Positions 741-15,790 of a stretch of 16,617 nucleotides of DNA are shown piece after piece. Numbering within the stretch: the first letter of the stretch is position 1; every line of letters begins with the position of its first letter. A program made the translations under genes and the position numbers. The stretch spans positions 1-16,617 of the forward strand of contig JAGWDQ010000148.1 in NCBI GenBank assembly GCA_018260615.1. The letters are read 5' to 3'. Origin of the DNA: Candidatus Altarchaeum sp. (GTDB lineage Archaea; Altiarchaeota; Altiarchaeia; Altiarchaeales; Altiarchaeaceae). The notes under the pieces are model-generated. The model saw nothing but the letters and a program-made list of their open reading frames with translations. It did not search any database and was not told the origin of the DNA.

Positions 741-831
741 TTTAAAAACTTTGTTGTTCTTTACGAATTTACAAGTGCAAGTAAAAATTTTGAAATTCCA
801 TAGTGGGATTATGACATTATGAAAAACCAAT

Positions 832-1806: not shown

Positions 1807-1915
1807 TTTCCATAATTATAAATTTAACTTTCATGCTTAAATTTTCGTATTTGACAAATAGTTATTTATTTGTGCCTCTACATTTAATTGTTGTGGAAAA
1901 ATTTTGTAAGTAAAG

Positions 1916-2602
1916 TTAAATTAAATACTTTGTCATATCTTTTACATTTGCCATCTTAAAAGCCCTTTTTCTTCTTAAACAACTTTCGCATTCCCCGCAA
2001 TGAACATTATTGCTATCTGATTTATAACAACTCCACGAAACATGCATGGGTGCCTTAATTTTTTCTCCCAATTTAACAATTTCAGTTTTGTTCAGAGCAA
2101 TTAAAGGTGCAATAAGATATGGCTTTTTCTTTTGTAAAACTGCAAAATTTAACAAATTATTAAAATTTTTAACGAAGTCGTTGCTGTTATCTGGAAATGT
2201 AGCTGCTTCCTCTTTGTCAAATCCGGTAAATATGGCATCTGCATTTTCACTTTCTGCAATACCTGTGGCAATAGAGCAAAAGACCAGATTGCGGGCAGGA
2301 ACCCAGACCAGAGATGCGGACTGAGCAGATTTCTCTTTGTCATCCAAATCGCTAAATTTAACCTTTGGAATATTTCCTGATATTAAGCCGGATTTTAAAT
2401 TTTTCATCCATTCAAGAGTTATAATATCAAATTTTGCATCTAAAAATTCTGAAATTTCTTTTGCTGCGATTTTTTCCTGCTCTAATGCCTTTTGTCCGTA
2501 ATCAAAAAATAAAGTATGTAATTTATAACCCTCATTCTTTGCATAACTTGCTGCAACGCAACTATCCAATCCTCCTGAAAGGACAATTATTGCTTTTTTC
2601 AT
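1916..2602 (-). CDS. queC: 7-cyano-7-deazaguanine (preQ0) synthase
   Basis: Start taken at ATG 2602 (MKKAIIVLSGGLDS); FDYGQ, VWVPARN, YPD-like FPD, and Zn motif SWSCY...HCGECESC are typical of QueC. Confidence 0.93.
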   Translation of the reverse strand: MKKAIIVLSGGLDSCVAASYAKNEGYKLHTLFFDYGQKALEQEKIAAKEISEFLDAKFDIITLEWMKNLKSGLISGNIPKVKFSDLDDKEKSAQSASLVWVPARNLVFCSIATGIAESENADAIFTGFDKEEAATFPDNSNDFVKNFNNLLNFAVLQKKKPYLIAPLIALNKTEIVKLGEKIKAPMHVSWSCYKSDSNNVHCGECESCLRRKRAFKMANVKDMTKYLI

Positions 2603-2667
2603 TTTAAATTTATATATTAATTTATATTTAAGCATAATTTTATTTAGCATTTTTTAATCATAAGAAA

Positions 2668-3198
2668 ATGGAAAACATATACCAGCTTAAAATTGCTTTG
2701 AAAGGAATTAAGCCACCGGTATGGCGATTAATAGAAGTGCCGGAAACATATACTTTTGGGAAATTGCACAATGCAATACAGGATGCAATGGGATGGGATG
2801 ATTATCACCTGTATGTTTTTGAGATCGGCGGAGTTGAAATAGGGCATCCGGACATGATTGCAGAAGGCGGAGGTCTTGATGCAAATAAGAAAAAGATAAA
2901 GGATTATTTTGTAAAAGGAGGTAAGGCAACATATACCTACGACTTTGGAGACGACTGGGAGCATGAAGTAAAATTAAAAGACATAATTCCGTCTGAAAAA
3001 GGGACAAAATATCCGAGATGTATTGATGGAAAAAGAGCATGCCCGCCGGAGGATTGCGGAGGCATATACGGATATGAAGAGTTTTTAGAGGCAATAAAAG
3101 ATCCCGGGCATGATGAACATGATGAAATGCTGGAATGGGTAGGCGGAGAGTTTGACCCTGAAAAATTTGACCAGAAAGAGGTTAAATTTAGAAAGTAA
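2668..3198 (+). CDS. Plasmid pRiA4b ORF-3 family protein
   Basis: 176 aa with the family motifs YQLKIAL..IKPPVWR, LHNAIQDAMGWDDYHL, YTYDFGDDWEH, CIDGKRACPPEDCGGIYGY, FDPEKFD. Confidence 0.88.
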   Translation: MENIYQLKIALKGIKPPVWRLIEVPETYTFGKLHNAIQDAMGWDDYHLYVFEIGGVEIGHPDMIAEGGGLDANKKKIKDYFVKGGKATYTYDFGDDWEHEVKLKDIIPSEKGTKYPRCIDGKRACPPEDCGGIYGYEEFLEAIKDPGHDEHDEMLEWVGGEFDPEKFDQKEVKFRK

Positions 3199-3231
3199 TC
3201 AGTAGCAGATTATAACTGAACTCAAATTTAT
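3198..3231 (+). repeat. 34-bp imperfect direct repeat, copy 1
   Basis: atcagtagcagattataactgaactcaaatttat matches 4094-4127 at 30/34 positions. Confidence 0.8.
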
Positions 3232-3473
3232 GATTGTGTTAACTTAATATATGCCGATTTCGTTCCACTCACAGTATTCGTGTCTTTCAAAAACAGGTTT
3301 TGAAATAGACAAACATCAGAGGATTTCAGAGATTAAAAAGGAGTTCGGGAAATGGGACTCTATAAGGGGGATTTGAAGGCAGAAGATGAATTGACAAAAG
3401 AGCAACCGGATGAGATGCCGCTTAATAAATTGATTTATAATCTCAAAACCATAATTAAATATAAATTATTAAA

Positions 3474-3686
3474 ATGGAAAACCTAACTTTAGATCACATA
3501 TATAAGGCTTTAGATCACATGCATAAAGATATCGGAGAAATTAAATTTGAATTAAAGAGGCTCAGTTTTATAATTGAAGATGATTTTGAACTTAGCGAAA
3601 GCACAAAAAAAGATCTTGAGAAGGCAAGAAAGGAGCCACTGTCAAGTTATATAGACCACGAGGAAGTTCTTAAAGAATTCTTATAA
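3474..3686 (+). CDS. Putative type II antitoxin (archaeal RelB-like partner)
   Basis: 70-aa acidic protein ending LSESTKKDLEKARKEPLSSYIDHEEVLKEFL; its TAA overlaps the ATG of a RelE-like toxin (TAATG, 3684-3688). Confidence 0.7.
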   Translation: MENLTLDHIYKALDHMHKDIGEIKFELKRLSFIIEDDFELSESTKKDLEKARKEPLSSYIDHEEVLKEFL

Positions 3687-3896
3687 TGACTTATAAAATT
3701 AAATGGCGACCAATAGCATTAAAAGAGTTAAGAAAATGAAGGCCATAAACATTTCCTTGAAAAACTTACAGATGATGAAGGTTATAAAGTAAGAGTTGGC
3801 GACTATAGGGCAATAATAGATGTCCTTGAGCAGGAAAAGATAATAACAGTACGAGTTGTTGGACATCGGAGGAATATTTATAAAAGACATCTGTGA
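3686..3896 (+). pseudogene. relE: RelE/ParE-family toxin pseudogene (internal deletion with frameshift)
   Basis: ATG 3686 gives MTYKIKWRPIALKELRK*; another frame gives ...HFLEKLTDDEGYKVRVGDYRAIIDVLEQEKIITVRVVGHRRNIYKRHL* (TGA 3894-3896) with the RelE motifs RVGDYR and GHRRNIY. Span is 211 nt (3n+1). Confidence 0.85.
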
Positions 3897-4093
3897 TCAT
3901 ACAGGCATCATAATCCTACCCGATGTTTAGATAAATTTGCAGACGGGAAAAATTGACCTTCCCGAAAATTTAAAAGAAATATAACTATTCAGCTTCAGCC
4001 GCTCATAAAAATCAACTCACCACCGTTCGGAGATTTTAAAATCGCTTACGCTCATGCATTTCAAACAAGTTTGAAATTGAATTATTAAACATC

Positions 4094-4127
4094 ATCAATA
4101 GCGGATTGTAACAGAACTCAAATTTAT
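4094..4127 (+). repeat. 34-bp imperfect direct repeat, copy 2
   Basis: atcaatagcggattgtaacagaactcaaatttat, 30/34 identical to 3198-3231. Confidence 0.8.
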
Positions 4128-4130
4128 TTC

Positions 4131-4499
<369 letters not shown>

Positions 4500-4535
4500 T
4501 TAAAATTTAATAATAAATTTTGTTTAAATTTAAAA

Positions 4536-5702
4536 TTATTTCATAGCGTGTTCAGGATACATTTCAATCCCGAACTGTGAGTCAAGCCCTTTTCTTTCAA
4601 CTTCTGCTTTTTCTCTGATTCCGATAGTAAATTTTAATATTCCGAATACCAGCAATGCCAAAATTCCCGCAATTGCAACAATTATAAAAATTCCTATAAA
4701 TTGTGATAATATATTTACTCCTCCCGCACCTCCGAAAATTTTAAGTCCGAATATTCCCGCTGCAAGAGTTCCCCATATTCCAGAGACCGCATGAACAGAT
4801 GTTACCGCACAAACATCATCTATCTTTAATTTAGAATCAATAAATTTATAAACAACCGGCAATAAAATTCCCGCAACAAAGCCAATGAGCAAACCTCCGA
4901 CAGGATGCACAACATCCGCTCCCGCACATATTGCCACAAGTCCCGCTGCTGCTCCATTGGCAATAAATAAAGGATCTCCTTTACTCATAATTGCCGCCCC
5001 TATAATTCCTCCGGCCATCGCAAGTGTTGTGGCAACTGCAACCGAAAGCCCGATTTTCCAGTCATTAAACGAACTGATACTTCCGATATTAAATCCAAAC
5101 CAACATATTGCTAAAATCCATGCCCCGAGAACTGCAAAAGGAACATTATGTCATGCAATCGGAACGCTTGTCCCGTTTCTGTATTTTCCGATTCTCGCTC
5201 CTATTATGTATGCTGCGGTAAAGCCAATTATTCCTCCAAAAGCATGCACAACAGCAGAGCCGGCAAAATCATGAAAGCCAATATTTGCCAAAAAACCTCC
5301 GCCCCACGCTAAATGTTCAACGACGGGATAACCAAATCCGCCGATAATCATTGCTGCGATCATATAAGGAACAATTTTAACCCTTTCTGCTAATGCCCCG
5401 CTCATTATTGTAACCGCTGCAACTGCAAACATCAGCATCTTCATAAAATGTGCATAATCTTCTTCGGGAGCAATTCCGATATGAGGAAGAGCATAAGCAA
5501 TTGAATATCCGATAAAATAATACATCAGAATAACTGCTGCCAAATCAAGAAATTTCATCGTTAATTGCGTTCCGGCATTTTTTACTCTTATTTGTCCTAT
5601 TTCAAGCATTGCAAATCCCGCCTTCATAAAAAATATAAGCACTGCCGCCCATATAAAGAAAAAGGCAGTTAAACCGTCCATTAAGTTGAGCATTTCTTCC
5701 AT
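4536..5702 (-). pseudogene. amt: Ammonium transporter (Amt), full length (388 codons) but with one in-frame TGA at 5151-5153
   Basis: The two ORF-track pieces are in the same frame and the 44 codons between them are open: ...GTSVPIA*HNVPFAVLGAWILAICWFGFNIGS.... Amt motifs FFMKAGFAMLE, HDFAGSAVVH, WFGFN, DD, SVHAVSGIWG are all present. Confidence 0.9.
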
Positions 5703-5880
5703 TTTTGTATTTTTAATTTTTATTTTAAATTTATATTATAAACTTATAATCCCGCCATAAATATTTGATGTTTAAAATTTAAACAAAAAAGCATATTTAA
5801 GTTTCATACCTAAAAAGAAACAGAACTATAAATTTATTTTATATTTTTACAGTATTATATACTATATGTTTTTCATTGGT

Positions 5881-6196
5881 CTCTAACCTCGCTGTCGCAA
5901 AAATCTACAAGATTTTTGGGATATTCAAAAATGCTTGAAGCATTTTTGATATTGCTCGGAGATTTTCAAAATCTGTTGATTTTAAAAAAGACACAAAGGA
6001 GTTATACTGAAAATCTGTGAGATTTTCAATCTTTAAAAATCTGCGAAATTTTTAAATTACCTCGCTCTTCACCTCGCTCCTGCTCGGAGATTTAAAAAAT
6101 CTGTTGATTTTAAAAATCACCTCGCTCCTGCTCAGAGATTTTCAAATCTTTGAGATTTGAAAATACTCTGTGGCTTTGTGTCTTTGTGTGAATATT
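5881..6196. repeat. Intergenic cluster of modular repeats (ACCTCGCT..GCTCGGAGAT units with AT-rich hairpins)
   Basis: acctcgct at ~5886, 6059, 6071, 6119; gctcggagat at ~5954 and 6082; hairpins CAAAAATCT-aca-AGATTTTTG (5898-5918) and TCAAAAATGCT-tga-AGCATTTTTGA (5925-5949); 6003-6040 matches 16506-16543 at 37/38. Confidence 0.85.
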
Positions 6197-6331
6197 TTAT
6201 TATTTTTTACCAAAATTTAAAAATCCTGTGAAAAGAAAAATTTATTCCAAAAACAAATAATTATAAAATAAAAGGTAATTAATAACCAAATTTAATTTAA
6301 TACCTAATATATAATTAATCTAAATTTCAAA

Positions 6332-6610
6332 GTGGGACGAATAAAACAAACATATTTAAAAAGGGCAGCGATGGAAATTTATCGCACACACAAGGAAGAA
6401 CTGGCAGACAATTTTGAAGCAAATAAGGAAAGAGTTAATGAATATACGGACATTGAAAGCAAGCCGGTGAGAAATAAAATCGCAGGCTATCTGACAAAAT
6501 ATGTGAAAAGGATGCAGAAAAAAGAAGCAAAAGACACAGGCAGCAGTCAGGAAAGTGTGAGTCAGGAAAGTGTTCAGGAAGCAGCACAACAGGAAACAAA
6601 GAATAATTAA
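6332..6610 (+). CDS. rps17e: 30S ribosomal protein S17e with low-complexity C-terminal tail
   Basis: GTG start; MGRIKQTYLKR...FEANKERV...SKPVRNKIAGYLT is the S17e signature. Confidence 0.93.
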   Translation: MGRIKQTYLKRAAMEIYRTHKEELADNFEANKERVNEYTDIESKPVRNKIAGYLTKYVKRMQKKEAKDTGSSQESVSQESVQEAAQQETKNN

Positions 6611-6715
6611 TCAATATCTAACAATCCCAATAAAGAAGATAAATATAATTTTGGAGTTGGTTTAGGTGTATAAATTTTTAGCATTCAAATTTTTATGCGG
6701 ATTTTAGTTTTTTTT

Positions 6716-6790
6716 GGACCCGTGGCCCAACTTGGATAAGGCGACGGCCTCCTAAGTCGTAGATTGCGGGTTCAAATCCCGCCGGGCCCG
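6716..6790 (+). tRNA. tRNA-Arg (anticodon CCT)
   Basis: Cloverleaf: acceptor GGACCCG/CGGGCCC, D stem GCC/GGC, anticodon stem ACGGC/GTCGT with loop CT-CCT-AA, T arm GCGGG-TTCAAAT-CCCGC, discriminator G; no encoded CCA. Confidence 0.93.
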
Positions 6791-6829
6791 TTTGTTTTTT
6801 TATCGTACCGGAAAGTTCGTTTTATTGTT

Positions 6830-6947
6830 CTCTAACCTCGCTGTTGCTCGGATATTTTCAAAAACTCCGCGTTTTGAAAATCGCACCAAGACACGGAGAC
6901 ACAAAGGGCAATGTTGCTCTGTGACTTTGTGGCTTTGTGTGAGTATT
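6830..6947. repeat. Repeat module plus CTTTGTG-type repeats between convergent tRNA-Arg and the methyltransferase
   Basis: ctctaacctcgctgttgctcggatat followed by a ttttcaaaa..ttttgaaaa hairpin; 6917-6947 is 28/31 identical to 6166-6196. Confidence 0.8.
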
Positions 6948-6972
6948 CTTCTGATTTTTTTAAATTTAACCA

Positions 6973-7890
6973 CTACTTCTTTCTTATTTTACTCACAAAT
7001 GCCGTCTCTGTGTCATTATGCCATGGATACACCCTGATTCCATACTCGTTCTTTTCACAATTAACATTCAAATTAATTTCCTCAACTTCGGCATCGCTAT
7101 TGTTATCCATCAAAAATTTAACAACATCTTCGTTTTCTTCTGTTGGCGTTGTGCATGTGGAATAAACCAGAATCCCGCCTTTTTTTAAGTGGCTGAATGC
7201 ATCCGAAATCATCTTTTTCTGAACCTTTGAAATAGCGAGCGAAAATTTATATTCCCAACTTTTTAAAATTTCCTTATTCTTCCGTGAAGTTCCCAATGAC
7301 GAGCAGGGAGCATCCAAAAGCACTCTGTCAAATTTAAATAAATCGGGAAATTTACACGCATCATAATTTGTTACTATGCAATTTGTTATTCCCAGACGGT
7401 AAATATTGGCGATTAATGCCTGCGCCCGCTTTAAATTTAACTCGTTGGCTACAATTGTGCCCGAAAAATTTTTAACCGCAATCTGGGTTGTCTTTGAGCC
7501 GGGGGCGGCACATAAATCCAAAACCAAATTTCCATCGGCAACATCTAATGCCTCGGCAGCGAGCATTGCAGATGCCTCCTGGGAATAGCATAAACCAACA
7601 GCATGTTCAATTTTCAAACCGATTTTTCGTTCGTCAATGAAGTATGCATTTTCACTCCATAAAATTTGAGCATGTTCATAAGGAAAATTTTTAAAAAAAT
7701 CACCGGGAGAAATTTTTAATGTGTTAATTCGTATTGATTTTCTTAACGGAATATCCACATATTCCAGAAATTTTTCAGTCCATTCGTCACCAAATTTTTT
7801 ATGATATTCAAAAAAGTCAGGACTCGCCAGGTTTTTCGCTACTTTTGTATTTGTTATATCTGTTGTATTTGGTTTTTGCATTATTCGCAT
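6973..7890 (-). CDS. RsmB/RsmF/NOP2 (NSUN)-family RNA cytosine-C5 methyltransferase
   Basis: SIRINTLK, YSQEASAM, VLDLCAAPGSKT, FDRVLLDAPCS (motif IV PC), LVYSTCT..ENE (motif VI TC). Confidence 0.92.
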   Translation of the reverse strand: MRIMQKPNTTDITNTKVAKNLASPDFFEYHKKFGDEWTEKFLEYVDIPLRKSIRINTLKISPGDFFKNFPYEHAQILWSENAYFIDERKIGLKIEHAVGLCYSQEASAMLAAEALDVADGNLVLDLCAAPGSKTTQIAVKNFSGTIVANELNLKRAQALIANIYRLGITNCIVTNYDACKFPDLFKFDRVLLDAPCSSLGTSRKNKEILKSWEYKFSLAISKVQKKMISDAFSHLKKGGILVYSTCTTPTEENEDVVKFLMDNNSDAEVEEINLNVNCEKNEYGIRVYPWHNDTETAFVSKIRKK

Positions 7891-7991
7891 CTTTAAATTT
7901 TATCTTTAAATTTTTGATTTATTATCTGATATTCCTAATTTTTACGGATTAAAATATAATCAAATGAATTAAATATAAATACGATTAAAAT
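7748..7991 (+). repeat. Direct repeat A: methyltransferase 5' end plus divergent promoter region
   Basis: 7760-7827 = 10994-11061 (68 bp identical); 7873-7903 = 11125-11155 (31 bp); 7927-7956 = 11192-11221 (30 bp); cgattaaaat 7982-7991 = 11257-11266. Confidence 0.93.
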
Positions 7992-8028
7992 AGTAAATAA
8001 ATATATTAAATTGTAATTTTGTATCATA

Positions 8029-8940
8029 ATGAACAACCCTTTACGGAATATATTTAAACTGCAAATAAAAACATTGACAGGATTTGACTTTCAGGATTTT
8101 GTTGTTGATTTGTTCCTTCTGAAATATGGAGAACAAGGTTTTACCGTTATTAGGAAAAAGAAGGATAAAGGTTGTGATGGAATTATAAATGGTGAAAAAA
8201 GAGTTATTGCGTGTTATGGTCCAGAAGATGCAACTCAAAAAAAATTTGAAGACAAAGCAGACGATGATTTTAAAGATTATCAAAACAATTGGGGGAAAAA
8301 ATATCCTAAATGGATGTTTATAGTTAATCAGGATATTTCTCCCGCCCAAATAAATAAAATTGAAAGTTTAAAATCAGGAACTCCTCTTTTGGGAACGCAA
8401 CAAATACTTTCAATAATTGAGGGTTTAAAAAACGATCAGCGAAGAAAATTAGCTAAGTATTTAAAAATAGAGGATGAATTCATATCGTCGGACTATCTTG
8501 GAGAGATATTTGAAGATCTCCTGAAAGGCAGCGAAACAGCATTGGACAATATCAAATATGATACGAAAGGAAGGATTAATACTGAAGAAAAGATAGCAAT
8601 AAATTATGATAAATCCGATATAGAAGAAGCGATTAACGAGTACGGGCTTCTAATGGAAAGTGGTTCATTGAAAAAAGTAAGTGATTTATTGTTTGGGTAT
8701 GAAGATGAAGAAATTGACAGAATGAAACACCGTATTTTGTACGATTATAGTAATTTGACAATTGGAAGCTTCAAAACAAGATTAAAGCAACTCACAGAAC
8801 ATTATTTGGTAAAATACTCGTCTGAAAATGACGATGATTATCTTCATTATATTCGGACAGTTTTGATTTATTTATTTGAACAATGTTTAATAGGTCGCAA
8901 AATAAAACAAGAAAATGATATTGCCGCATCCAGAAAGTGA
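8029..8940 (+). CDS. lmuA: ABC-three-component/Lamassu effector (LmuA-like): N-terminal restriction-endonuclease-like (Mrr/PD-(D/E)xK) domain and C-terminal ABC-3C CTD
   Basis: GFDFQDFV..LF...GF......DKGCDG.....ACYGP..KFEDK..DDF resembles REase-fold effectors; C-terminal LIYLFEQCLIG resembles ABC-3C CTD endings; first gene of a CTD-MC-ATPase triad. Confidence 0.7.
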   Translation: MNNPLRNIFKLQIKTLTGFDFQDFVVDLFLLKYGEQGFTVIRKKKDKGCDGIINGEKRVIACYGPEDATQKKFEDKADDDFKDYQNNWGKKYPKWMFIVNQDISPAQINKIESLKSGTPLLGTQQILSIIEGLKNDQRRKLAKYLKIEDEFISSDYLGEIFEDLLKGSETALDNIKYDTKGRINTEEKIAINYDKSDIEEAINEYGLLMESGSLKKVSDLLFGYEDEEIDRMKHRILYDYSNLTIGSFKTRLKQLTEHYLVKYSSENDDDYLHYIRTVLIYLFEQCLIGRKIKQENDIAASRK

Positions 8941-9223
8941 TTTGACTTTAAATATTATGGTACTTGGAGTTGGTATTGTAGAACAACTCAAGGAACAAGA
9001 TTTTGTACTGGTTGAGAAATTAATGGTGGAATTCCTTGAAAAAAATAAGAAGCGAACACCTGAAATGTTTTTAAATTCATTAACATTTCTTTATTCTTGC
9101 GGTATGATTGAGAAAAAAGGATACAAAGTAAAATTAACTCCGCGAAAGGAGGTGCAAATGAAACTAAATGTTAAAAACGAAAAATGTTGGTCAGATTATT
9201 TTCAGAAACAGATTTATTATTAA
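8915..9223 (+). CDS. lmuC: ABC-three-component middle component (LmuC-like)
   Basis: Small protein MILPHPESDL...FLNSLTFLYSCGMIE, overlapping both neighbours, in the middle-component position. Confidence 0.68.
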   Translation: MILPHPESDLTLNIMVLGVGIVEQLKEQDFVLVEKLMVEFLEKNKKRTPEMFLNSLTFLYSCGMIEKKGYKVKLTPRKEVQMKLNVKNEKCWSDYFQKQIYY

Positions 9224-10971
9224 AGCCATTCAAGTTTGAAGCAGGCATTAATATTATTTTGGGCAAATACTCAGAGGATAAAGATAAAAGAGGAATAAAT
9301 GGAATAGGAAAATCATCACTGGTTAGATTAATCAATTATGCTTTGTTATCTGACACTGCGGAAAAGATATTCTCACAAGAGAAATACAATTTTTTACGAA
9401 CGGAAAAACATAATATTGTTTTGGAATTAAAAATAGAAAGCAAGACACTTTTTATTAAGAGATATTTTGTGACAGCCGATAAGGTTTATTTTGGAAATAC
9501 ACTCAATGAGCTTGAAGAATACACAAAAACAGAATTAAAAAAAATACTAATCAACAAATTATTTCCGATTCAAAGCAATGATGTTTTTTTTGAAGGCAAT
9601 AAATTCGGTACGCTGATGAGCTTCTTTATTAAAGACGATTTAGAAAATCAAAAGAGAGCCGACCCCCTATATTTCTTGACATATAATAATGCAAATGCCA
9701 GAGATATTGCCATTTATAATTTTTTTCTTCTAAATCTGCCAACAAAAAATCTTATTGGTTATAATGAATTAGCAAAAGAATATGCCAATCACAATAAAGC
9801 AATAAAAGTGCTTCAAGATAAAATTGAAGCAGATACGGGTAAACCCCTGGAAGAATTTAGAAGTGAGCGAATAAAAATAGAGCAGTCCATTTCTTTGCTT
9901 GAAAAAAGTTTAAAGGACTTTAAGTTTTTGGATAATTATAAAAATGTAGAATCTCAATTAATTGAAATCACTTCTCAAATAAATGAGAAGTTAAAAGATT
10001 TTCATTCGTTAAATCAAAAATTAAAAAAAGTTAAAGATGCTTTTCAATATACTCCGGATATAGATACAAATCACTTAAGAAAATTATACAATGAGGTTGT
10101 TTCAACATTTGGAGATATAGTCTCCAAAACACTAGATGAAATTATAGCGTTTAAAAAAGAAATTTTAGAAAACAGAAACAAGTTTTTAGTTTCCAGAGAA
10201 AATCAACTTCAAAAAGCCATAAATCAGGTATCAGATGAAATTTCTAAAATTGAAAAAAAAAGAAGTGAACTTTATAAAAAACTTGAAGAAAAAGGAGCAT
10301 TATCAGGCATTACAAATACCTATGAGCAGTTAACAATTGAAAAAACTAAATTGGCAGGCAATCTGGGAATATTAAAACAGATTGATGAAATTCAGGAAAT
10401 ACTCGGAAATTTGAATGTAAAAATAAGCGAAATCAAAAGGGATATTCTATATGAATTAAAAAATAATCAAAAATCCATCAATGACTTAAGGGGTATTTTT
10501 CAGGAAATTTTAGAAAATGCAATTTTCTTAGACAATGATAATCTAAAGGGTTATTTTGATATTTCGTCAAGAAATAACTCGAAAAGAGATCAGTTGCCAT
10601 TTAAAATTTATGTTGAGATACCAAAAGCAGATGCATTAGGACAATCACGTTTAAAAATTGTCGCGTATGATTTAATGGTATTTCTTAATAATATTAAAGC
10701 AAGCAGAAAGTTTCCTGATTTTATTGTTCATGATGGAGTTTATCATGGCATTTCACTAAACACAAAAATAAAAGCTCTGAATTATATTTACCATCAATAC
10801 CTTGCTAATCCTAATTTTCAATACATCGTAACATTTAATGAAGATGAAATTTATATTCCTAAAGAAAAACAATTATCAGTTGGTAAATTTGACTTTGATA
10901 TAAATGAACAGATCATTGCTGAATTTACAGATTCACCTTCTAAAATGATTTTTAAAAGAGATTTTAAATAG
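9184..10971 (+). CDS. lmuB: SMC/Rad50-like ABC ATPase with DUF2326-type C-terminus (LmuB-like)
   Basis: N-terminal FEAGINIILG, Walker A NGIGKSS, long coiled coil, degenerate signature LGQSRLKIVAYDL, Walker B FIVHDGVYHG, QYIVT; 595 aa with no CxxC hook. Confidence 0.85.
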   Translation: MLVRLFSETDLLLKPFKFEAGINIILGKYSEDKDKRGINGIGKSSLVRLINYALLSDTAEKIFSQEKYNFLRTEKHNIVLELKIESKTLFIKRYFVTADKVYFGNTLNELEEYTKTELKKILINKLFPIQSNDVFFEGNKFGTLMSFFIKDDLENQKRADPLYFLTYNNANARDIAIYNFFLLNLPTKNLIGYNELAKEYANHNKAIKVLQDKIEADTGKPLEEFRSERIKIEQSISLLEKSLKDFKFLDNYKNVESQLIEITSQINEKLKDFHSLNQKLKKVKDAFQYTPDIDTNHLRKLYNEVVSTFGDIVSKTLDEIIAFKKEILENRNKFLVSRENQLQKAINQVSDEISKIEKKRSELYKKLEEKGALSGITNTYEQLTIEKTKLAGNLGILKQIDEIQEILGNLNVKISEIKRDILYELKNNQKSINDLRGIFQEILENAIFLDNDNLKGYFDISSRNNSKRDQLPFKIYVEIPKADALGQSRLKIVAYDLMVFLNNIKASRKFPDFIVHDGVYHGISLNTKIKALNYIYHQYLANPNFQYIVTFNEDEIYIPKEKQLSVGKFDFDINEQIIAEFTDSPSKMIFKRDFK

Positions 10972-10974
10972 AAT

Positions 10975-11142
10975 TTACATTGGAATATTAACGTATTCCA
11001 GAAATTTTTCAGTCCATTCGTCACCAAATTTTTTATGATATTCAAAAAAGTCAGGACTCGCTATTTTCAAAACGAAGTTTTGAAAATCTCCGAGCGGTAG
11101 CGAGGTGATCTTGTTTCTCTCTGTTTTTTGCATTATTCGCAT
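10975..11142 (-). pseudogene. Truncated second 5' copy of the m5C methyltransferase (55 codons) containing an in-frame repeat module
   Basis: Hand translation: MRIMQKTERNKITSLPLGDFQNFVLKIASPDFFEYHKKFGDEWTEKFLEYVNIPM*, versus MRIMQKPNTTDITNTKVAKNLASPDFFEYHKKFGDEWTEKFLEYVDIPLRK for 7890-6973. Confidence 0.88.
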
Positions 11143-11266
11143 CTTTAAATTTTATTCTTTTAAATTTTACTTTATTTTTTGTTTTATTGTTTGATATTCC
11201 TAATTTTTACGGATTAAAATACAAACGAATAAATTAAATATAAATCAATATAAATGCGATTAAAAT
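10982..11266 (+). repeat. Direct repeat B: second copy of methyltransferase 5' end and promoter, ending at the pckG start codon
   Basis: See repeat A; also carries an inverted repeat module at 11063-11108 (ATTTTCAAAAC-gaa-GTTTTGAAAAT then ctccgagcggtagcgaggtga). Confidence 0.93.
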
Positions 11267-13070
11267 GGAAAATCTGAATAAAATTACAAACAAGTATATT
11301 AACAATTATATTAAAAACAAGTATGTCCTGGAATTTGTAAATAAATCGGCAGAACTCTGTGAGCCGGATAAAATTTACTTCTGTAACGGTTCGGAAGAAG
11401 AAAAAAAATTTCTTACCGGCGAGGCAATTAAAACAGGAGAATTGATTGAATTAAAACAGGAAAAATTTCCCGGATGCGTATTGCACAGGACTGCTATAAA
11501 TGATGTTGCAAGAACCGAGCATTTGACTTATATCTGCACGACAAAAAAAGAAGATGCAGGTCCCACAAACAACTGGATGGCACCCAAAGATGCTTATGAA
11601 GAATTGGGAGAGTATTTCAGGGATTCAATGAAGGGAAGAACGATGTATGTCATTCCGTTCATGATGGGTGTTCCAGGTTCAAAAATGAACAAAATAGGTG
11701 TGGAAATTACAGATAGTATCTATGTTGTTTTAAATATGAGAATAATGACACATATCGGAAGAATTGTAGCAGATGATATTATAGGAGATAACTTTACCAA
11801 AGGGCTTCACTCAAAAGGCGATATCAGTTTGGAAAAACGAAGAATCTGCCATTTTCCCGAGGATAATACTATATGGAGCATAAATTCCGGTTACGGCGGG
11901 AATGTTTTATTGGGTAAAAAATGCCTTGCCCTTCGTATCGCAAGTTATCTTGGCAGAAAGGAAGGATGGCTGGCAGAGCATATGCTTTTAATGGAGATAC
12001 AAACGCCCGACGGAAAAATTTTTTATGTTGCAGGAGCATTTCCAAGTTCGTGCGGAAAAACAAACCTCTCTATGTTGATTCCTCCGGAGTCACTTCCGGG
12101 TTACAAAGTAAGAGTACTCGGAGATGATATTGCGTGGATGTATATTGGCGATGATGGCCGACTATGGGCAATTAATCCCGAAGCGGGATTTTTCGGAGTT
12201 GTTCCCGGGACAAACATGAAAACAAATAAGAATGCGATGTTAACAATTCAAAAAAATACCATATTTACAAATGTTCTTTTAAAAGAGGATAAGACCGTCT
12301 GGTGGGAAGGAATGGAAAACCCGCCGGATAAAGGAATTGACTGGAAAGGTGATGCATGGACAAAGGAATCAAAAGAACCGGGAACACATCCGAACAGCAG
12401 ATTTACCACACCAACATCACAGTGTCCCGCATTATCTTCGGAATTTTCAAATCCGAAAGGAGTGCCGGTTTCAGCAGTCCTTTTTGGCGGAAGAAGAGGA
12501 AATGTTGTTCCTCTTGTTTACGAATCATTTAACTGGAAGCACGGAGTTTTTATAGGTGCAACATTGAGGTCAGAGACGACAGCGGCAGCAATGGGACTTG
12601 GAAAGATTGTAAGAAATGACCCTATGGCAATGATTCCGTTCTGCGGATACAATATGGGAGATTATTTTGCCCACTGGTTAGACCTTGGAAAACGGATGAA
12701 ATTTCCCCCGAAAATATTCTTCGTTAACTGGTTCAGGAAAAACAGGGAAGGAAAATTTTTATGGCCTGGATACGGTGAAAATTTAAGGGTTATTGAATGG
12801 ATTATAAAGCAATGTGATTCCGATAACAATAACAAAGAAAAAGAAGCAGTTGAAACACCTGTCGGATATGTTCCGGAGATTGATGCAATAAATACGAAAG
12901 GGATAGAAATAAGCAAACAAGACATAAAAGAATTGTTAAGCATTGATAAAAATGAATGGCTTGAAGAGGCGGATGAAGTAGAGAAATTTTTCAGTAAATT
13001 TGACAGGATGCCAAAGGAATTAACAAAGGAATTAAACGATTTGCGGGAACGACTAAAAAATTCGAAATGA
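11265..13070 (+). CDS. pckG: Phosphoenolpyruvate carboxykinase (GTP)
   Basis: DVARTE, MYVIPF, GYGGNVLLGKKCLALR, WLAEHM, FPSSCGKTN, GDDIAWM, NPEAGFFGV, HPNSRF, DPMAMIPFCGYN, VNWFRK, WPGYGEN. Confidence 0.97.
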   Translation: MENLNKITNKYINNYIKNKYVLEFVNKSAELCEPDKIYFCNGSEEEKKFLTGEAIKTGELIELKQEKFPGCVLHRTAINDVARTEHLTYICTTKKEDAGPTNNWMAPKDAYEELGEYFRDSMKGRTMYVIPFMMGVPGSKMNKIGVEITDSIYVVLNMRIMTHIGRIVADDIIGDNFTKGLHSKGDISLEKRRICHFPEDNTIWSINSGYGGNVLLGKKCLALRIASYLGRKEGWLAEHMLLMEIQTPDGKIFYVAGAFPSSCGKTNLSMLIPPESLPGYKVRVLGDDIAWMYIGDDGRLWAINPEAGFFGVVPGTNMKTNKNAMLTIQKNTIFTNVLLKEDKTVWWEGMENPPDKGIDWKGDAWTKESKEPGTHPNSRFTTPTSQCPALSSEFSNPKGVPVSAVLFGGRRGNVVPLVYESFNWKHGVFIGATLRSETTAAAMGLGKIVRNDPMAMIPFCGYNMGDYFAHWLDLGKRMKFPPKIFFVNWFRKNREGKFLWPGYGENLRVIEWIIKQCDSDNNNKEKEAVETPVGYVPEIDAINTKGIEISKQDIKELLSIDKNEWLEEADEVEKFFSKFDRMPKELTKELNDLRERLKNSK

Positions 13071-13420: not shown

Positions 13421-13490
13421 AATTTTGGGATTTTAAAATTTCTAATCTAAATAACATCACTTGTTTGGAGATTTTAGGACTTGTTTTAAA

Positions 13491-15656
13491 ATGGATATTG
13501 AAGGTTATTGCAGGCGTGAGTTAAAAAAAGGAATAAAGGAAAAAGAAATTTTGAGTGAAATTTCAGACCTGATTTTAAAGATAAAATTTAACTCCGACAA
13601 AAGTAAAAGCGATAAAGCAAAATTACTTGCAGAAGCGGTTTTGGAAGAAGTAAAGAAAACAAACAAAAAAATTGATAATAAATTTCTGAATGACCTGCTA
13701 AATTTTCCAAAGTCAAATGTCAGTATGGGAGAAATCGGGGTCGGAAGCCGGGGTAAAGGTGACTTCTTTGTTCATGAAAAAATCTGTGGAATTGCCTCAA
13801 ACAATATTAGCGGAAAATTTACAAATGTTATTGTCGGTGCAAAAGAACACGATGATGCAGGTATTGTAGATATAAGCGAAAATGTAGGAAAAAACGGAAA
13901 TTTTATTGTTGTTTCCGTAGACGGGACACACTCCCGTTTATCAGAATATCCTTTTATTGCCGGCTTTCATGTTGCAAGAGCATCATTAAGAGACATTTAT
14001 GTTAAAGGTGCAAAACCGGTCGCATTGCTTGATGACTTACATCTTGCAGATGACGGCGATGTCGGAAAACTTTTTGATTTTGTTGCAGGAATTTCTGCGG
14101 TCAGCGAACTGTCGGATGTTCCGTTGGTTGCCGGCTCAACATTAAGAATTGGCGGAGATATGGTTATCGGAGAGAGGATGGTTTCCTGTGTCGGTGCGGT
14201 TGGAATTATAAACGCTCCAAATTTAATTAAGGCGAGAAAAAATGTCCATGTCGGAGATAAAATTTTAATGACTAGTGGTGCAGGAGGCGGAACAATAGCG
14301 ACAACCGCAATTTATTCGGGAAATTTTGATGTTGTTCCTGAAACGCTCAATATTTCTTTCATAAAGGCGTGCAAAATTTTGCACGAGAAAAATTTACTGC
14401 ATAAGATTGATGCAATGCTTGATGTGACAAACGGAGGAATCAGAGGCGATGCTTATGAGGTTTTAAATTTATTAAACAAAAAAGACGAGGACGAAAAAAC
14501 GAAAATAATAAAAATTATTGAAATTTTAAGGACTGATTATAAGGAATTTTTTTACTCAGGCAAAGAACCATTTAGTGTATTAATTTCAACGCTCTTATCC
14601 CAAAGAACAAAAGATGCTAAAACAAAGCAGGCAGGTGAAAATTTATTTAAATTTATTTCAAAGCCGGAAGATGTTTTAAAGTGTGATTTAAGAGAAATAG
14701 AAAATGCGATAAAGAAGGTAAATTTTTATAAGACGAAGGCGAAACGAATTGTTGAAATTTCAAAAATTTTGATTGAGGAATATAATGGCAATGTTCCGGA
14801 TAATGAAGATGACCTGTTAAAATTAAGCGGCGTCGGAAGAAAAACGGCAAATTGTGTTTTGGCGTTTGCGTTTGACAGGCAGGCGATTCCTGTTGATACG
14901 CATGTTCATCGCATTTCAAATCGTATTGGAATGGTGAATACAAAAAATCCAAACGATACAGAGAATGACCTGAAAAAAATTTTACCTGAGGACTATTGGA
15001 AAACAATTAATTACCTGTTTGTTCAGCACGGACAAAAAATTTGTAAGCCGTTAAAGCCAAATTGCGAAAAATGTAAAATTAAGGAATATTGTAATTACTC
15101 ATTAACCGGAGCAGGCAAGAATGTCTCTCTAAAATTTTACGAACCAAAAATCAAAAATTTAATAAACAAAAAGGTCTATAGCATGCTTAAAAATTTAAAT
15201 ATTGATGAACTTGGCGTTTCTCTTGATTCGCTGATGCTTTTTGTTCCTCCTGAAAACTGCGGCGAAATTATCAAAAATTTAAGGGATGGCGGAATTGAAA
15301 TTGATGAAATCGGAGAGGTTATAGAAAGTAAGACAGAAGGAAAAATTTTGCTGACAGACAAAAATAATAATGAAAAAGCAGTTGAGCCGTTGTTTAGAGA
15401 GTCGGCATATACGAAGATTAAGAAGGTTGTCGGCGAGCAGACACCCGAGAAATTTGAGGAAATGAAGAAAAATGTGGATAATGCCTATCGGGATGCCTTA
15501 AAAAAGAAAGAGGAAATTTTAAAATTTATTGGGCTCGCACCTTTTTTTGAGTCATCCGCAGTAAAAAAAGTAACCTCACTTCGTTCGGATATTTCAAAAA
15601 CTTCGTTTTTGAAATTGCACCAAAAAAAGATAACCTCACTTCGTTCGGAGATTTAA
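13491..15656 (+). CDS. AIR-synthase-related (PurM/HypE-fold) protein with an in-frame nested endonuclease III domain
   Basis: Start at ATG 13491 (MDIEGY). AIRS-like motifs GVGSRGKGDF, DDAG, VSVDGTHSRLS, RDIYVKGAKP, GGDM, DVTNGGIRGD; after the Nth insert the host domain resumes (IDELGVSLDSLMLF...IGEV...FRESAYT). Confidence 0.85.
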   Translation: MDIEGYCRRELKKGIKEKEILSEISDLILKIKFNSDKSKSDKAKLLAEAVLEEVKKTNKKIDNKFLNDLLNFPKSNVSMGEIGVGSRGKGDFFVHEKICGIASNNISGKFTNVIVGAKEHDDAGIVDISENVGKNGNFIVVSVDGTHSRLSEYPFIAGFHVARASLRDIYVKGAKPVALLDDLHLADDGDVGKLFDFVAGISAVSELSDVPLVAGSTLRIGGDMVIGERMVSCVGAVGIINAPNLIKARKNVHVGDKILMTSGAGGGTIATTAIYSGNFDVVPETLNISFIKACKILHEKNLLHKIDAMLDVTNGGIRGDAYEVLNLLNKKDEDEKTKIIKIIEILRTDYKEFFYSGKEPFSVLISTLLSQRTKDAKTKQAGENLFKFISKPEDVLKCDLREIENAIKKVNFYKTKAKRIVEISKILIEEYNGNVPDNEDDLLKLSGVGRKTANCVLAFAFDRQAIPVDTHVHRISNRIGMVNTKNPNDTENDLKKILPEDYWKTINYLFVQHGQKICKPLKPNCEKCKIKEYCNYSLTGAGKNVSLKFYEPKIKNLINKKVYSMLKNLNIDELGVSLDSLMLFVPPENCGEIIKNLRDGGIEIDEIGEVIESKTEGKILLTDKNNNEKAVEPLFRESAYTKIKKVVGEQTPEKFEEMKKNVDNAYRDALKKKEEILKFIGLAPFFESSAVKKVTSLRSDISKTSFLKLHQKKITSLRSEI
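14490..15098 (+). other. nth: Endonuclease III (Nth) DNA glycosylase/AP lyase domain within the 13491-15656 CDS
   Basis: PFSVLISTLLSQRTKD, FYKTKAKRI, HhH motif LLKLSGVGRKTAN (catalytic Lys), VDTHV (catalytic Asp), 4Fe-4S motif CKPLKPNCEKCKIKEYC. Boundaries approximate. Confidence 0.93.
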
Positions 15657-15790
15657 AAATCACCTCGCTCTTGCTCGGAGATATTAAAATCCTTTGAGGA
15701 TTTTAATATCCTTTGAGGATTTTAAAATCACCTCGCTGACGCTCGGAGATATTCAAAAACTCCTTTTTGAATATGTAAAAATCTCCGATT
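15571..15790. repeat. Repeat-module cluster overlapping the 3' end of the AIRS/Nth gene
   Basis: taacctcacttcgttcgga at 15571 and 15631; cacctcgct..gctcggagat at 15661 and 15729; hairpin ATTTCAAAAAC-ttc-GTTTTTGAAAT (15591-15615). Confidence 0.88.

What the first reader, a model, noticed from the sequence alone, without database searches (positions are those of the whole stretch)
7748..11266. Defence cassette appears to have integrated using its own copy of a host gene's 5' end and promoter, with no integrase
Seen: the 5' ~49 codons of the m5C methyltransferase and the whole divergent intergenic region up to the pckG start occur twice in direct orientation (68-bp identical core, 3234 bp apart; other blocks diverged), with the three-gene operon in between. 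The intact methyltransferase uses copy A; copy B is a truncated, different allele ending 4 bp from the ATPase stop. The operon starts about 40 bp after the point where pckG starts in copy B. Inference: single-crossover (Campbell-type) integration of a circle carrying a homology arm from a related strain, which swapped the gene's N-terminus and put the defence genes behind a pckG-like promoter. The reverse crossover would excise a ~3.2-kb circle, giving a reversible, population-variable defence locus.
Basis: partly seen in the sequence, partly recalled or inferred. Interest (0 to 1): 0.8.

Follow-up and report, generated by a model that had tools for sequence, protein, structure and literature searches.

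The report
Integrase-free defence cassette with borrowed gene start
In an uncultivated groundwater archaeon (Candidatus Altiarchaeum), a three-gene anti-virus cassette of bacterial type sits between two housekeeping genes, flanked by two unequal copies of the target DNA, which suggests it entered by ordinary homologous recombination through a borrowed homology arm, not through an integrase.

Summary
Copy A (7748-7997) and copy B (10982-11272) are direct repeats 3234 bp apart. They share a 68-nt identical core (7760-7827 = 10994-11061). They bracket a three-gene ABC-3C/Lamassu-like cassette.

Two same-genus genomes have the empty site, with the methyltransferase directly next to pckG. Copy B is the native allele. 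It is 94% identical to the closest congener. Copy A right of the core is a different allele class and is contiguous with the cassette.

The cassette is 85% nucleotide-identical to a Bacteroidota MAG contig. It was not found in the 3 congeners, and only a 27%-identical relative turned up in 1 of 57 other class genomes. It carries no recombinase, and the MAG holds only one tyrosine recombinase.

Best reading (~0.6): homologous, Campbell-type insertion of cassette plus a heterologous arm. The circle, the promoter use and the reversibility are untested.

The same scar recurs in this genome. I verified two more loci, and earlier follow-ups of this scan report it at dozens of genes. It matches the known "insertion with long target duplication" of restriction-modification units in bacteria. 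I therefore rate it a new variant of a known kind.

The parts
6973..7890 (-). RNA m5C methyltransferase (NOL1/NOP2/Sun family), now chimeric. The body and the core are of the native type. Codons 1 to about 21 (7828-7890) are of a foreign allele class.
   Evidence: Pfam Methyltr_RsmB-F 9e-48 and NCBIfam nop2p / tRNA C49 MTase. In a sliding window, identity to G001 is mostly 85-96% up to 7827 and then falls to about 35%. N-terminal types are compared.
7748..7997 (+). Repeat copy A: the methyltransferase 5' end (about 48 codons), the divergent intergenic region and the pckG start position (ATG mutated to ATA at 7990-7992).
7760..7827 (.). 68-nt core in copy A, identical to 10994-11061. This is the inferred crossover or gene-conversion zone.
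   Evidence: the two cores are identical; 64/68 to G001
7987..7999 (.). Left junction. This zone resembles both the pckG start (AAAATGGAAAAT) and the upstream DNA of the Bacteroidota homologue (GTGGAAAATAAAA), so it is a possible microhomology join.
7998..10971 (+). Foreign cassette: about 30 bp of its own upstream DNA (with a TAATTTTG box) plus three genes, ending exactly at the ATPase stop codon.
   Evidence: 85% nucleotide identity to L025:6925-9049 and 68-71% to four other Bacteroidota or metagenome loci. GC is 28.9% against 33.5-36.5% in the flanking segments.
8029..8940 (+). Effector component (303 aa). It is an ABC-3C CTD10-type protein by Atlas features. An N-terminal Mrr-like nuclease domain is only a weak lead.
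   Evidence: Atlas score 0.97 and TM 0.85 to a CTD10 cluster; Mrr_cat E 0.055, below cut-off.
8915..9223 (+). Middle component (91-102 aa, depending on the start codon chosen).
   Evidence: Pfam MC8/MC6 E 0.005, below cut-off. The same position is conserved in the homologous loci.
9184..10971 (+). SMC/ABC-type ATPase (595 aa).
   Evidence: Pfam DUF2326 9.7e-26. PADLOC PDC-M68B 1.7e-60 over the full length and LmuB 8e-14.
10982..11272 (+). Repeat copy B: the displaced native methyltransferase 5' end, the native intergenic region and the pckG start.
   Evidence: Intergenic part 93.9% identical to the G001 empty site; alignments.
10975..11142 (-). Open 55-codon stump of the native methyltransferase allele (MRIMQKTERNKITSLPLGDFQNFVLKIASPDFF...), ending 4 nt from the ATPase stop.
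   Evidence: Sequence. The same N-terminus heads an intact 308-aa methyltransferase, P0250, in a sister strain.
11063..11110 (.). One unit of the genome's interspersed hairpin repeat family, lying in frame inside the stump. It is absent from G001.
   Evidence: 129 blast hits in G000.
11265..13070 (+). pckG (GTP-dependent PEP carboxykinase), native, with its native upstream region.
   Evidence: Pfam PEPCK_GTP 5.8e-161; mostly 85-98% identical to G001 in sliding windows.

Best explanation
A three-gene ABC-3C/Lamassu-like cassette, whose closest relatives are in Bacteroidota, had become joined at both ends to a roughly 250-290-bp piece of the methyltransferase-pckG region of another Altiarchaeum lineage. 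One join is at pckG codon 3 and the other at methyltransferase codon ~48-51. This unit entered the present lineage by homologous recombination within a 68-nt stretch of the methyltransferase 5' end. The unit was most simply a circle, or equivalently a linear piece with terminal repeats.

The product is an insertion-duplication. The methyltransferase keeps its native body but now reads into the incoming N-terminus and upstream region, followed by the cassette. The native 5' end and native intergenic region are pushed to the far side, where they still serve pckG. No site-specific recombinase is needed.

Shown:
- the insertion relative to empty sites
- native versus foreign identity of the two copies
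- the identical core
- lack of an integrase
- recurrence of the scar at other loci

Inferred:
- the circular intermediate
- the exact crossover point
- transcription from the duplicated pckG-side promoter
- excision by the reverse crossover
For: (1) Empty site. In G001:C72 and G002:C117 the methyltransferase and pckG are directly adjacent, with one copy of the segment. The cassette ATPase was not found in the 3 congeners, and only a 27%-identical relative was found in 1 of 57 other genomes of the class.

(2) Copy B is native. Its intergenic part is 93.9% identical to G001, and its N-terminal codons match G001 apart from an inserted repeat unit. P0250, an intact 308-aa methyltransferase about 98% identical in its body, carries exactly the stump's N-terminus. 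It is recorded on a 91,282-bp contig, the same length as for a pckG that is 98.7% identical. None of the three cassette proteins looked up is recorded on a contig of that length.

(3) Copy A is foreign right of the core. Identity of the methyltransferase to G001 is mostly 85-96% up to 7827, then about 35%. The N-terminus is of the type seen in G003 and P0006. The intergenic part is 87.6% identical to G001 (78.6% counting gaps). This foreign tract runs unbroken to the cassette junction.

(4) The 68 identical nt are flanked by divergence on both sides. There are 3 differences in the 12 nt to the left, including D to N where both the intact gene and the sister strain have D. This is the pattern expected of a crossover or heteroduplex tract. 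The core is not invariant among lineages: it is 64/68 to G001, and G002 and G003 carry a 9-nt indel.

(5) No recombinase. The three cassette proteins have no integrase or transposase domain. The MAG has one tyrosine recombinase, on C79. Cargos at other such loci share no protein.

(6) The same anatomy, with empty sites in congeners, occurs at C115 (hypD' + hypC, about 345 bp duplicated, 7.2-kb cargo) and at C79 (about 195 bp duplicated, 4-kb cargo).
Against: - No reads were available, so neither a circle nor an empty-site junction in this sample could be looked for.
- Both cores look host-type. A simple reciprocal crossover would leave one donor-type core unless the donor core was already identical or was converted.
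- The donor lineage is not sampled.
- At the two other verified loci the repeats are about 99% identical. The primary event there may therefore create the duplication de novo, and this locus could in principle be such an event followed by allele replacement.
- The three differences left of the core are few. A similar small cluster of differences sits at the junction of the C115 locus, so they might be a by-product of joining and not donor polymorphism.
Confidence: 0.6

Rival explanations
1. De novo insertion with long target duplication in this lineage. A double-strand break with long staggered ends, or joining between two chromosome copies or template switching, captured the foreign fragment and duplicated about 290 bp. 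Copy A was later overwritten by an imported allele or diverged fast.
For: Near-identical repeats at the C115 and C79 loci fit duplication made at insertion. The phenomenon is described for restriction-modification units in bacteria, with an unknown and possibly break-related mechanism (PMC2853133). Both junctions lie in AT-rich microhomology zones.
Against: Copy A differs from copy B as different species do, and its N-terminus is of another allele class shared with other lineages. The foreign tract reaches to within a few nt of the cassette junction. A later replacement would therefore need its right crossover inside about 5-27 bp. A run of 68 identical nt within about 10-20% divergence is not expected from uniform decay.
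Confidence: 0.2
2. Assembly state is wrong. The chromosome has the empty site (methyltransferase with B-type N-terminus next to pckG), and the cassette plus arm A is a separate 3.2-kb circle or belongs to a co-occurring strain. The assembler threaded both through the shared 68-nt core.
For: The sequence is a MAG contig. Only 68 nt are shared, so a short k-mer graph could be mis-threaded. A sister strain with the un-swapped allele exists in public data. In another assembly a 99.7%-identical ATPase sits on a contig of only 3,517 bp.
Against: The join of the native-type methyltransferase body to the A-type N-terminus is recorded on three contig records: this 16,617-bp window, 16,651 bp (P0243) and 9,550 bp (P0248). 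The stump and cassette are on both 16.6-kb records. A 68-nt repeat is shorter than usual reads. G000 holds no second contig with methyltransferase or pckG. Even under this reading the circle would carry a heterologous homology arm, so the biology would be the pre-integration state of the same model.
Confidence: 0.1
3. Site-specific integration by a recombinase supplied in trans or since lost. The 68-nt core is the att site, and the element carries a replacement gene end, as integrative elements in gene ends do.
For: An identical core with diverged arms is also the anatomy of attL/attR. The E. coli H47 island has long imperfect direct repeats and no recombinase, and it moves RecA-independently with hybrid sites formed in identity segments (PMC3191183).
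Against: There is no integrase in the 3-kb insert or the 16.6-kb contig. The MAG, 87% complete, holds only one Xer-like tyrosine recombinase. The arm extends through the whole intergenic region to the neighbour's third codon, beyond what restoring the gene needs. Other loci with the same scar have unrelated targets with no common sequence.
Confidence: 0.07

Closest known systems
Insertion with long (and variable) target duplication of restriction-modification gene units (Nobusato et al. 2000, Gene 259:99; Furuta, Abe & Kobayashi 2010, PMC2853133)
   Same: A small defence gene unit with no mobility genes is flanked by direct repeats far longer than transposon target duplications. A related genome has an empty site with one copy. 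The repeats span the start or stop of the target gene, so that gene stays intact.
   Different: The host here is an archaeon and the cargo is an ABC-3C/Lamassu-like system, not R-M. The repeats are about 250-290 bp. They are two different alleles with a 68-nt identical core, which points to transfer between lineages through the repeat. The authors hypothesised that step ('release and invade') but had no evidence for it.
Campbell-type single-crossover integration (insertion-duplication, 'pop-in/pop-out') of a non-replicating circle carrying a homology arm (textbook genetics; own knowledge)
   Same: The product is a direct duplication of the arm flanking the insert. Each copy is a hybrid of resident and incoming DNA. 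The reverse crossover excises the circle.
   Different: That is a laboratory procedure, or the behaviour of plasmids with large homologies. Here it is inferred for a natural 3-kb cassette with a short, 10-20% diverged arm. The circle has not been seen.
H47 genomic island of E. coli (Azpiroz et al. 2011, PMC3191183)
   Same: A small island flanked by extensive imperfect direct repeats that encodes no recombinase. Recombination occurs in segments of identity between the repeats.
   Different: H47 movement was shown experimentally and is RecA-independent, attributed to host site-specific functions. Nothing is known about the enzymes here.
Integrative elements that bring a replacement end for the gene they enter (e.g. 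e14 and phage 21 in icd; own knowledge)
   Same: The incoming DNA supplies a diverged copy of the gene end, so the gene stays functional. The original end is left as a stump on the far side.
   Different: Those elements encode an integrase and use a defined att core. Here there is no integrase, and the arm runs on through the intergenic region into the neighbour's start.
Homology-facilitated illegitimate recombination (de Vries & Wackernagel 2002; Prudhomme et al. 2002; summarised in PMC3240628 and PMC5361080)
   Same: Foreign DNA is anchored by one short homologous segment, and microhomology joins are seen where foreign DNA meets host DNA.
   Different: HFIR acts on linear DNA and usually deletes or replaces recipient DNA. 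Here the target is duplicated and nothing is lost.
ABC-3C / Lamassu-family defence systems (cargo only)
   Same: Three-gene order of effector, small middle component and SMC/ABC ATPase (DUF2326; PADLOC PDC-M68B, LmuB-like).
   Different: The middle and effector components match Pfam models only below threshold. Activity has not been tested. The host is archaeal but the sequence is of bacterial type.

Membership tests
Insertion with long target duplication (Furuta et al. 2010 criteria) | Insert absent from an otherwise colinear related genome (empty site) | tested here: met
   G001:C72 and G002:C117 have the methyltransferase directly next to pckG.
Insertion with long target duplication (Furuta et al. 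2010 criteria) | Flanking direct repeats longer than 30 bp that correspond to a single-copy target in the empty genome | tested here: met
   Repeats of about 250-290 bp, present once in G001 and G002.
Insertion with long target duplication (Furuta et al. 2010 criteria) | Insert shorter than 20 kb, with no transposase, integrase or other mobile-element genes | tested here: met
   The insert is 3 kb. Pfam, PADLOC and NCBIfam show only ABC-3C-type proteins.
Insertion with long target duplication (Furuta et al. 2010 criteria) | Insert contains R and M gene homologues (their operational criterion) | tested here: not met
   The cargo is an ABC-3C/Lamassu-like system, not R-M.
Campbell-type single-crossover insertion | Two copies that are reciprocal hybrids of resident and incoming alleles | tested here: inconclusive
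   Right of the core the picture is clear: copy A is foreign and copy B native. Left of the core only 12 nt exist in copy B, with 3 differences.
Campbell-type single-crossover insertion | Circular intermediate, and dependence on the homologous recombinase (RadA) | not testable with these tools
Integrase-mediated genomic island / CIME | Tyrosine or serine recombinase in or next to the element | tested here: not met
   None in the window. There is a single PF00589 hit in the MAG, on contig C79.
Integrase-mediated genomic island / CIME | Identical att core at both ends | tested here: met
   68-nt identical core. This is equally expected from homologous exchange.
ABC-3C / Lamassu family | SMC/ABC-type ATPase of the LmuB / DUF2326 kind | tested here: met
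   DUF2326 9.7e-26. PDC-M68B 1.7e-60 and LmuB 8.4e-14.
ABC-3C / Lamassu family | Small middle component and an effector with an ABC-3C C-terminal domain | tested here: inconclusive
   MC6/MC8 E 0.005, below cut-off. CTD10 is supported only by Atlas features (0.97) and structure (TM 0.85). My own AF2 model was poor, pLDDT 54.
ABC-3C / Lamassu family | Protection against phage or plasmid | not testable with these tools
   Needs expression and challenge assays.
Homology-facilitated illegitimate recombination | One homologous anchor plus an illegitimate join, with loss or replacement of recipient DNA | tested here: not met
   The target is duplicated and nothing is deleted.

The most novel reading that the evidence does not exclude
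The unit 'cargo plus one copy of the duplicated target' is a self-sufficient, integrase-free mobile module. Once formed, it can loop out through its repeats, pass to another Altiarchaeum lineage and re-enter by homologous recombination, with the target copy serving as a portable homology arm. This locus, with its heterologous arm and inter-domain cargo, would be the first natural trace of the 'release and re-invade' step that was only hypothesised for insertion with long target duplication. It would be a general route of gene gain in this genus.
Probability: 0.3. Interest if true: 0.75.

Novelty: new variant of a known kind. Interest (0 to 1): 0.55.

Why it matters
How defence systems move when they carry no integrase or transposase is an open question. 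Insertion with long target duplication was described 25 years ago for restriction-modification units and still has no mechanism. This locus adds three things.

- The scar is found in an archaeon, with a non-R-M defence system whose nearest relatives are bacterial (85% nucleotide identity).
- The two repeat copies are different alleles. The native one is displaced and the foreign one is attached to the cargo, which is what transfer through the repeat by homologous recombination predicts.
- A sister strain appears to keep the un-swapped allele, so the locus is variable within a population and can be tested with reads.

It also shows a housekeeping enzyme acquiring a new N-terminus and upstream region as a side effect of defence-gene gain.

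Tried and rejected
The public contigs of 91,282, 9,550 and 3,517 bp that carry the sister alleles could not be fetched, so their evidence is at protein level only.
- Viral contigs hold no relative of the ATPase and no copy of the core.
- The AF2 model of the effector from a 5-sequence alignment was too poor to search (pLDDT 54). PDB sequence searches gave nothing.
- G003 could not show 'other cargo at this site'. Its methyltransferase contig ends at the gene start, and the DNA upstream of its pckG is interspersed repeats plus a 215-bp segment shared with another contig end.
- Other candidate insertion-duplication loci (C16, C30, C104, C20) gave no clean empty site in the three congeners. The C114 candidate abuts a run of N. 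I do not count any of these.
- No protein is shared among cargos, so there is no hidden common recombinase.
- No tRNA gene lies in or next to the repeats in the eight other candidate loci scanned (L043, L044, L046-L051). In the window, tRNA-Arg at 6715-6791 lies outside the repeat.
- The sigma-70 promoter scan was not used because the host is an archaeon.
- I rejected HFIR as the class, because the target is duplicated and not deleted.

Full report
**What is in the window**

The window is one whole contig (C148, 16,617 bp) of a MAG with 148 contigs, 87% complete. Source names of the closest proteins place it in Candidatus Altiarchaeum / Altiarchaeales. An archaeal ribosomal protein S17e gene lies on the contig.

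The relevant genes are:
- 6973-7890 (minus strand): an RNA m5C methyltransferase of the NOL1/NOP2/Sun family.
- 8029-8940, 8915-9223 and 9184-10971 (plus strand): three genes.
- 11265-13070 (plus strand): GTP-dependent PEP carboxykinase, pckG.

**The observation**

The repeat is real. Copy A runs 7748-7997 and copy B runs 10982-11272, in direct orientation, 3234 bp apart at the left end. The copies share an exactly identical 68-nt core, 7760-7827 = 10994-11061. Outside the core:
- The 12 nt to the left have 3 differences.
- The methyltransferase N-terminal codons to the right are essentially unalignable.
- The intergenic part is 89.5% identical, or 80% counting indels.

The segment occurs nowhere else in the MAG. 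Copy B contains an open 55-codon stump whose stop lies 4 nt from the ATPase stop. The pckG ATG position is ATA at 7990 in copy A, 39 nt before the first cassette gene.

**The cargo**

- The ATPase matches Pfam DUF2326 (9.7e-26). It matches the PADLOC candidate-system model PDC-M68B over its full length (1.7e-60), and LmuB of Lamassu more weakly (8e-14).
- The small middle protein gives sub-threshold hits to ABC-3C middle components MC6 and MC8.
- The first protein has no Pfam family. The ESM Atlas places it with ABC-3C proteins carrying C-terminal domain CTD10 (features 0.97, structure TM 0.85). A weak Mrr-type nuclease signal at its N-terminus (E 0.055) is a lead only.

The three-gene order is the same in five related loci. 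I read the cassette as an ABC-3C/Lamassu-family candidate defence system. Its function is untested.

**Origin of the cargo**

The cassette ATPase was not found in the three other genomes of the genus. Only one distant relative (27% identity) turned up in the other 57 class genomes searched.

Its nearest relatives lie in MAGs labelled Bacteroidetes, Bacteroidales and Daejeonella, and on two metagenome contigs. One Bacteroidetes contig (L025) is 85% identical in nucleotides over window 7987-10132. There the cassette sits beside a type III restriction-modification system and an SMC-like gene. L025 shares nothing else with this genome.

Similarity to the bacterial loci starts about 30 bp upstream of the first gene. 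It includes a TAnnTTTG box, which from my own knowledge is the Bacteroidota -7 promoter motif, and it ends at the ATPase stop codon. Cassette GC is 28.9% against 33.5-36.5% in the flanking segments. The acquired DNA is therefore about 7998-10971, a bare operon. Both joints lie in short AT-rich zones that resemble both partners.

**Insertion relative to empty sites**

In G001 (contig C72) and G002 (C117), both of the same genus, the methyltransferase and pckG are divergent neighbours with a single copy of the segment. G003 is uninformative. Its methyltransferase contig ends at the gene start, and the DNA upstream of its pckG is repeat-rich.

**Which copy is native**

The methyltransferase body is mostly 85-96% identical to G001 up to position 7827. 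Identity then drops to about 35%, while G003 becomes the better match.

Copy B matches G001 closely:
- Its intergenic part is 93.9% identical.
- Its N-terminal codons (MQKTERNKI..) match, apart from a 48-bp unit of the genome's interspersed hairpin repeat inserted in frame.

Copy A's N-terminus (MQKPNTTDITNTKVAKNL) belongs to another allele class, seen in G003 and in a more distant homologue, P0006.

The strongest evidence comes from public protein records. P0250 is an intact 308-aa methyltransferase whose body differs from this one at 5 residues, and it carries exactly the stump's N-terminus, repeat unit included. It is recorded on a 91,282-bp contig. A pckG that is 98.7% identical is recorded on a contig of the same length. 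None of the three cassette proteins looked up is recorded on a contig of that length.

So the closest known strain appears to have the un-swapped gene. In the present genome that native 5' end is the displaced stump. This also shows that the repeat unit sat in a working gene before the event.

**How it most likely happened**

The foreign tract of copy A is continuous from the right edge of the core to the cassette junction. The native tract of copy B is continuous from the core into pckG. The 12 nt of copy B left of the core differ at 3 sites from the intact gene. One of these is an Asp-to-Asn change where both the intact gene and the sister strain have Asp.

This is the reciprocal mosaic expected when a molecule carrying [arm from another lineage + cassette] recombines once with the chromosome inside the core. 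The core is not simply conserved. It differs from G001 at 4 of 68 positions, and G002 and G003 carry a 9-nt indel there. Its identity between the two copies therefore reflects exchange or conversion.

No recombinase is present in the insert or the contig. The MAG has a single, Xer-like tyrosine recombinase.

I therefore favour homologous, Campbell-type insertion, or its linear equivalent, of a cassette with a heterologous arm (0.6).

Caveats:
- Both cores look host-type, so either the donor core was already identical or one copy was converted.
- The circle itself has not been observed.
- The donor lineage is unsampled.

**Not a one-off**

A self-comparison of the MAG finds many cargo segments bracketed by 150-555-bp direct repeats that include a gene end. 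I verified two of them against congeners:
- C115: 75 nt of hypD, the whole of hypC and its upstream 35 nt are duplicated (about 345 bp, about 99% identical) around 7.2 kb of cargo. G002 has the empty site.
- C79: about 195 bp of a divergent intergenic region is duplicated around a 4-kb, three-gene cargo. G001, G002 and G003 all have the empty site.

The cargos share no protein.

After this I consulted earlier notes of the scan. Other follow-ups report the same scar at dozens of genes of this genome, and they name the closest known phenomenon: insertion with long target duplication. I read that paper (PMC2853133). It describes restriction-modification units without mobility genes, flanked by long direct repeats that often span the start or stop of the target gene, with empty sites in relatives. 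The mechanism is unknown. The authors proposed an 'invade, amplify, release' cycle, with no evidence for release.

The present locus fits that class in every structural criterion except the cargo type. It adds the heterologous arm. The E. coli H47 island (PMC3191183) is a second close parallel.

**Rivals**

- De novo duplication at insertion followed by allele replacement (0.2). It is disfavoured because the foreign tract reaches the junction.
- Mis-threaded assembly, or an unintegrated circle (0.1). It is disfavoured because the join of the native body to the A-type N-terminus is recorded on three contig records: this 16,617-bp window, 16,651 bp and 9,550 bp. It cannot be excluded without reads. 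A 99.7%-identical ATPase on a 3,517-bp contig in another assembly remains unexplained.
- A recombinase acting in trans (0.07).

**Promoter and reversibility**

The duplicated intergenic region places the pckG-side TATA-like sequence (TTAAATATAAAT, 7966-7977) about 50-60 nt upstream of the operon. The cassette also keeps its own AT-rich upstream 30 bp, which could itself act as an archaeal TATA element for a leaderless transcript. Neither possibility is tested.

A 68-nt identity could support excision. The product of excision would be exactly the allele seen in the sister strain. That allele may therefore be either ancestral or a revertant.

**Verdict**

The circle, the promoter use and the reversibility are open.

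This is a new variant of a known kind. It is of moderate to good interest because it makes the transfer step of an old, unexplained insertion mode directly testable with reads.

Noticed in passing
window 11063-11110, 6835-6863, 5954-6146, 15727-15758; G000 genome-wide: An abundant modular hairpin repeat (TTTTCAAAAC..GTTTTGAAAATCTCCGAGC..GCGAGGTGA) gives 129 blast hits in the MAG. It often lies at contig ends and is also present in the three congeners. One unit lies in frame in the methyltransferase N-terminus and is part of an intact gene in a sister strain (P0250).
   Followed up: partly
G000:C115:9990-17581 (L046) and G000:C79:2717-7164 (L048): Two further cargo insertions are flanked by long target duplications, with empty sites in congeners. 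The first duplicates hypD' + hypC (about 345 bp) around 7.2 kb that includes a 1392-aa CARDB protein and a HEAT-repeat protein. The second duplicates a 195-bp intergenic stretch around three genes, two of them HD-domain paralogues.
   Followed up: yes
G000 contigs C20, C16, C30, C104, C18, C44, C117, C121, C129, C79:19077-22765, C114: There are many more candidate cargo segments bracketed by 150-580-bp direct repeats that include ends of housekeeping genes (UbiA, Topo VI-A, a PHP protein, a nucleoside phosphorylase). One cargo is a STAND NTPase-TPR protein. Empty sites were not established for these, and C114 abuts a run of N.
   Followed up: partly
public records P0241/P0254 (3,517-bp contig), P0248 (9,550-bp contig), P0250/P0258 (91,282-bp contig): Other assemblies hold three related records. 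One has the cassette with 2 ATPase substitutions on a very short contig. One has the same chimeric methyltransferase cut at a contig end. One is a sister strain with the un-swapped methyltransferase and a 98.7%-identical pckG.
   Followed up: partly
window 6792-6960: About 170 bp between tRNA-Arg(CCT) (6715-6791) and the methyltransferase stop is absent from G001-G003. It contains a unit of the hairpin repeat.
   Followed up: no
window 4536-5702 (minus strand): The ammonium transporter gene reads as two ORFs (4536-5018 and 5151-5702), upstream of an intact P-II gene (4131-4472).
   Followed up: no
G003:C118 (L018) 5330-5400 and G003:C14 end (L040): In G003 the pckG start, including the ATG, is tandemly duplicated (a 24-nt unit). 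The 215 bp upstream are 100% identical to the end of another contig that carries an unrelated 439-aa gene. This is possibly another promoter-region duplication.
   Followed up: partly
L025 (CAINEZ010000582.1) 320-9049: In the Bacteroidetes MAG contig, the homologous ABC-3C cassette lies in a small defence island directly after a type III restriction-modification pair and an SMC-like 723-aa protein.
   Followed up: no
window 13461-15656: A fusion ORF combines AIR-synthase-like and HhH-GPD (endonuclease III) domains. An earlier finding of the scan already covers it.
   Followed up: no
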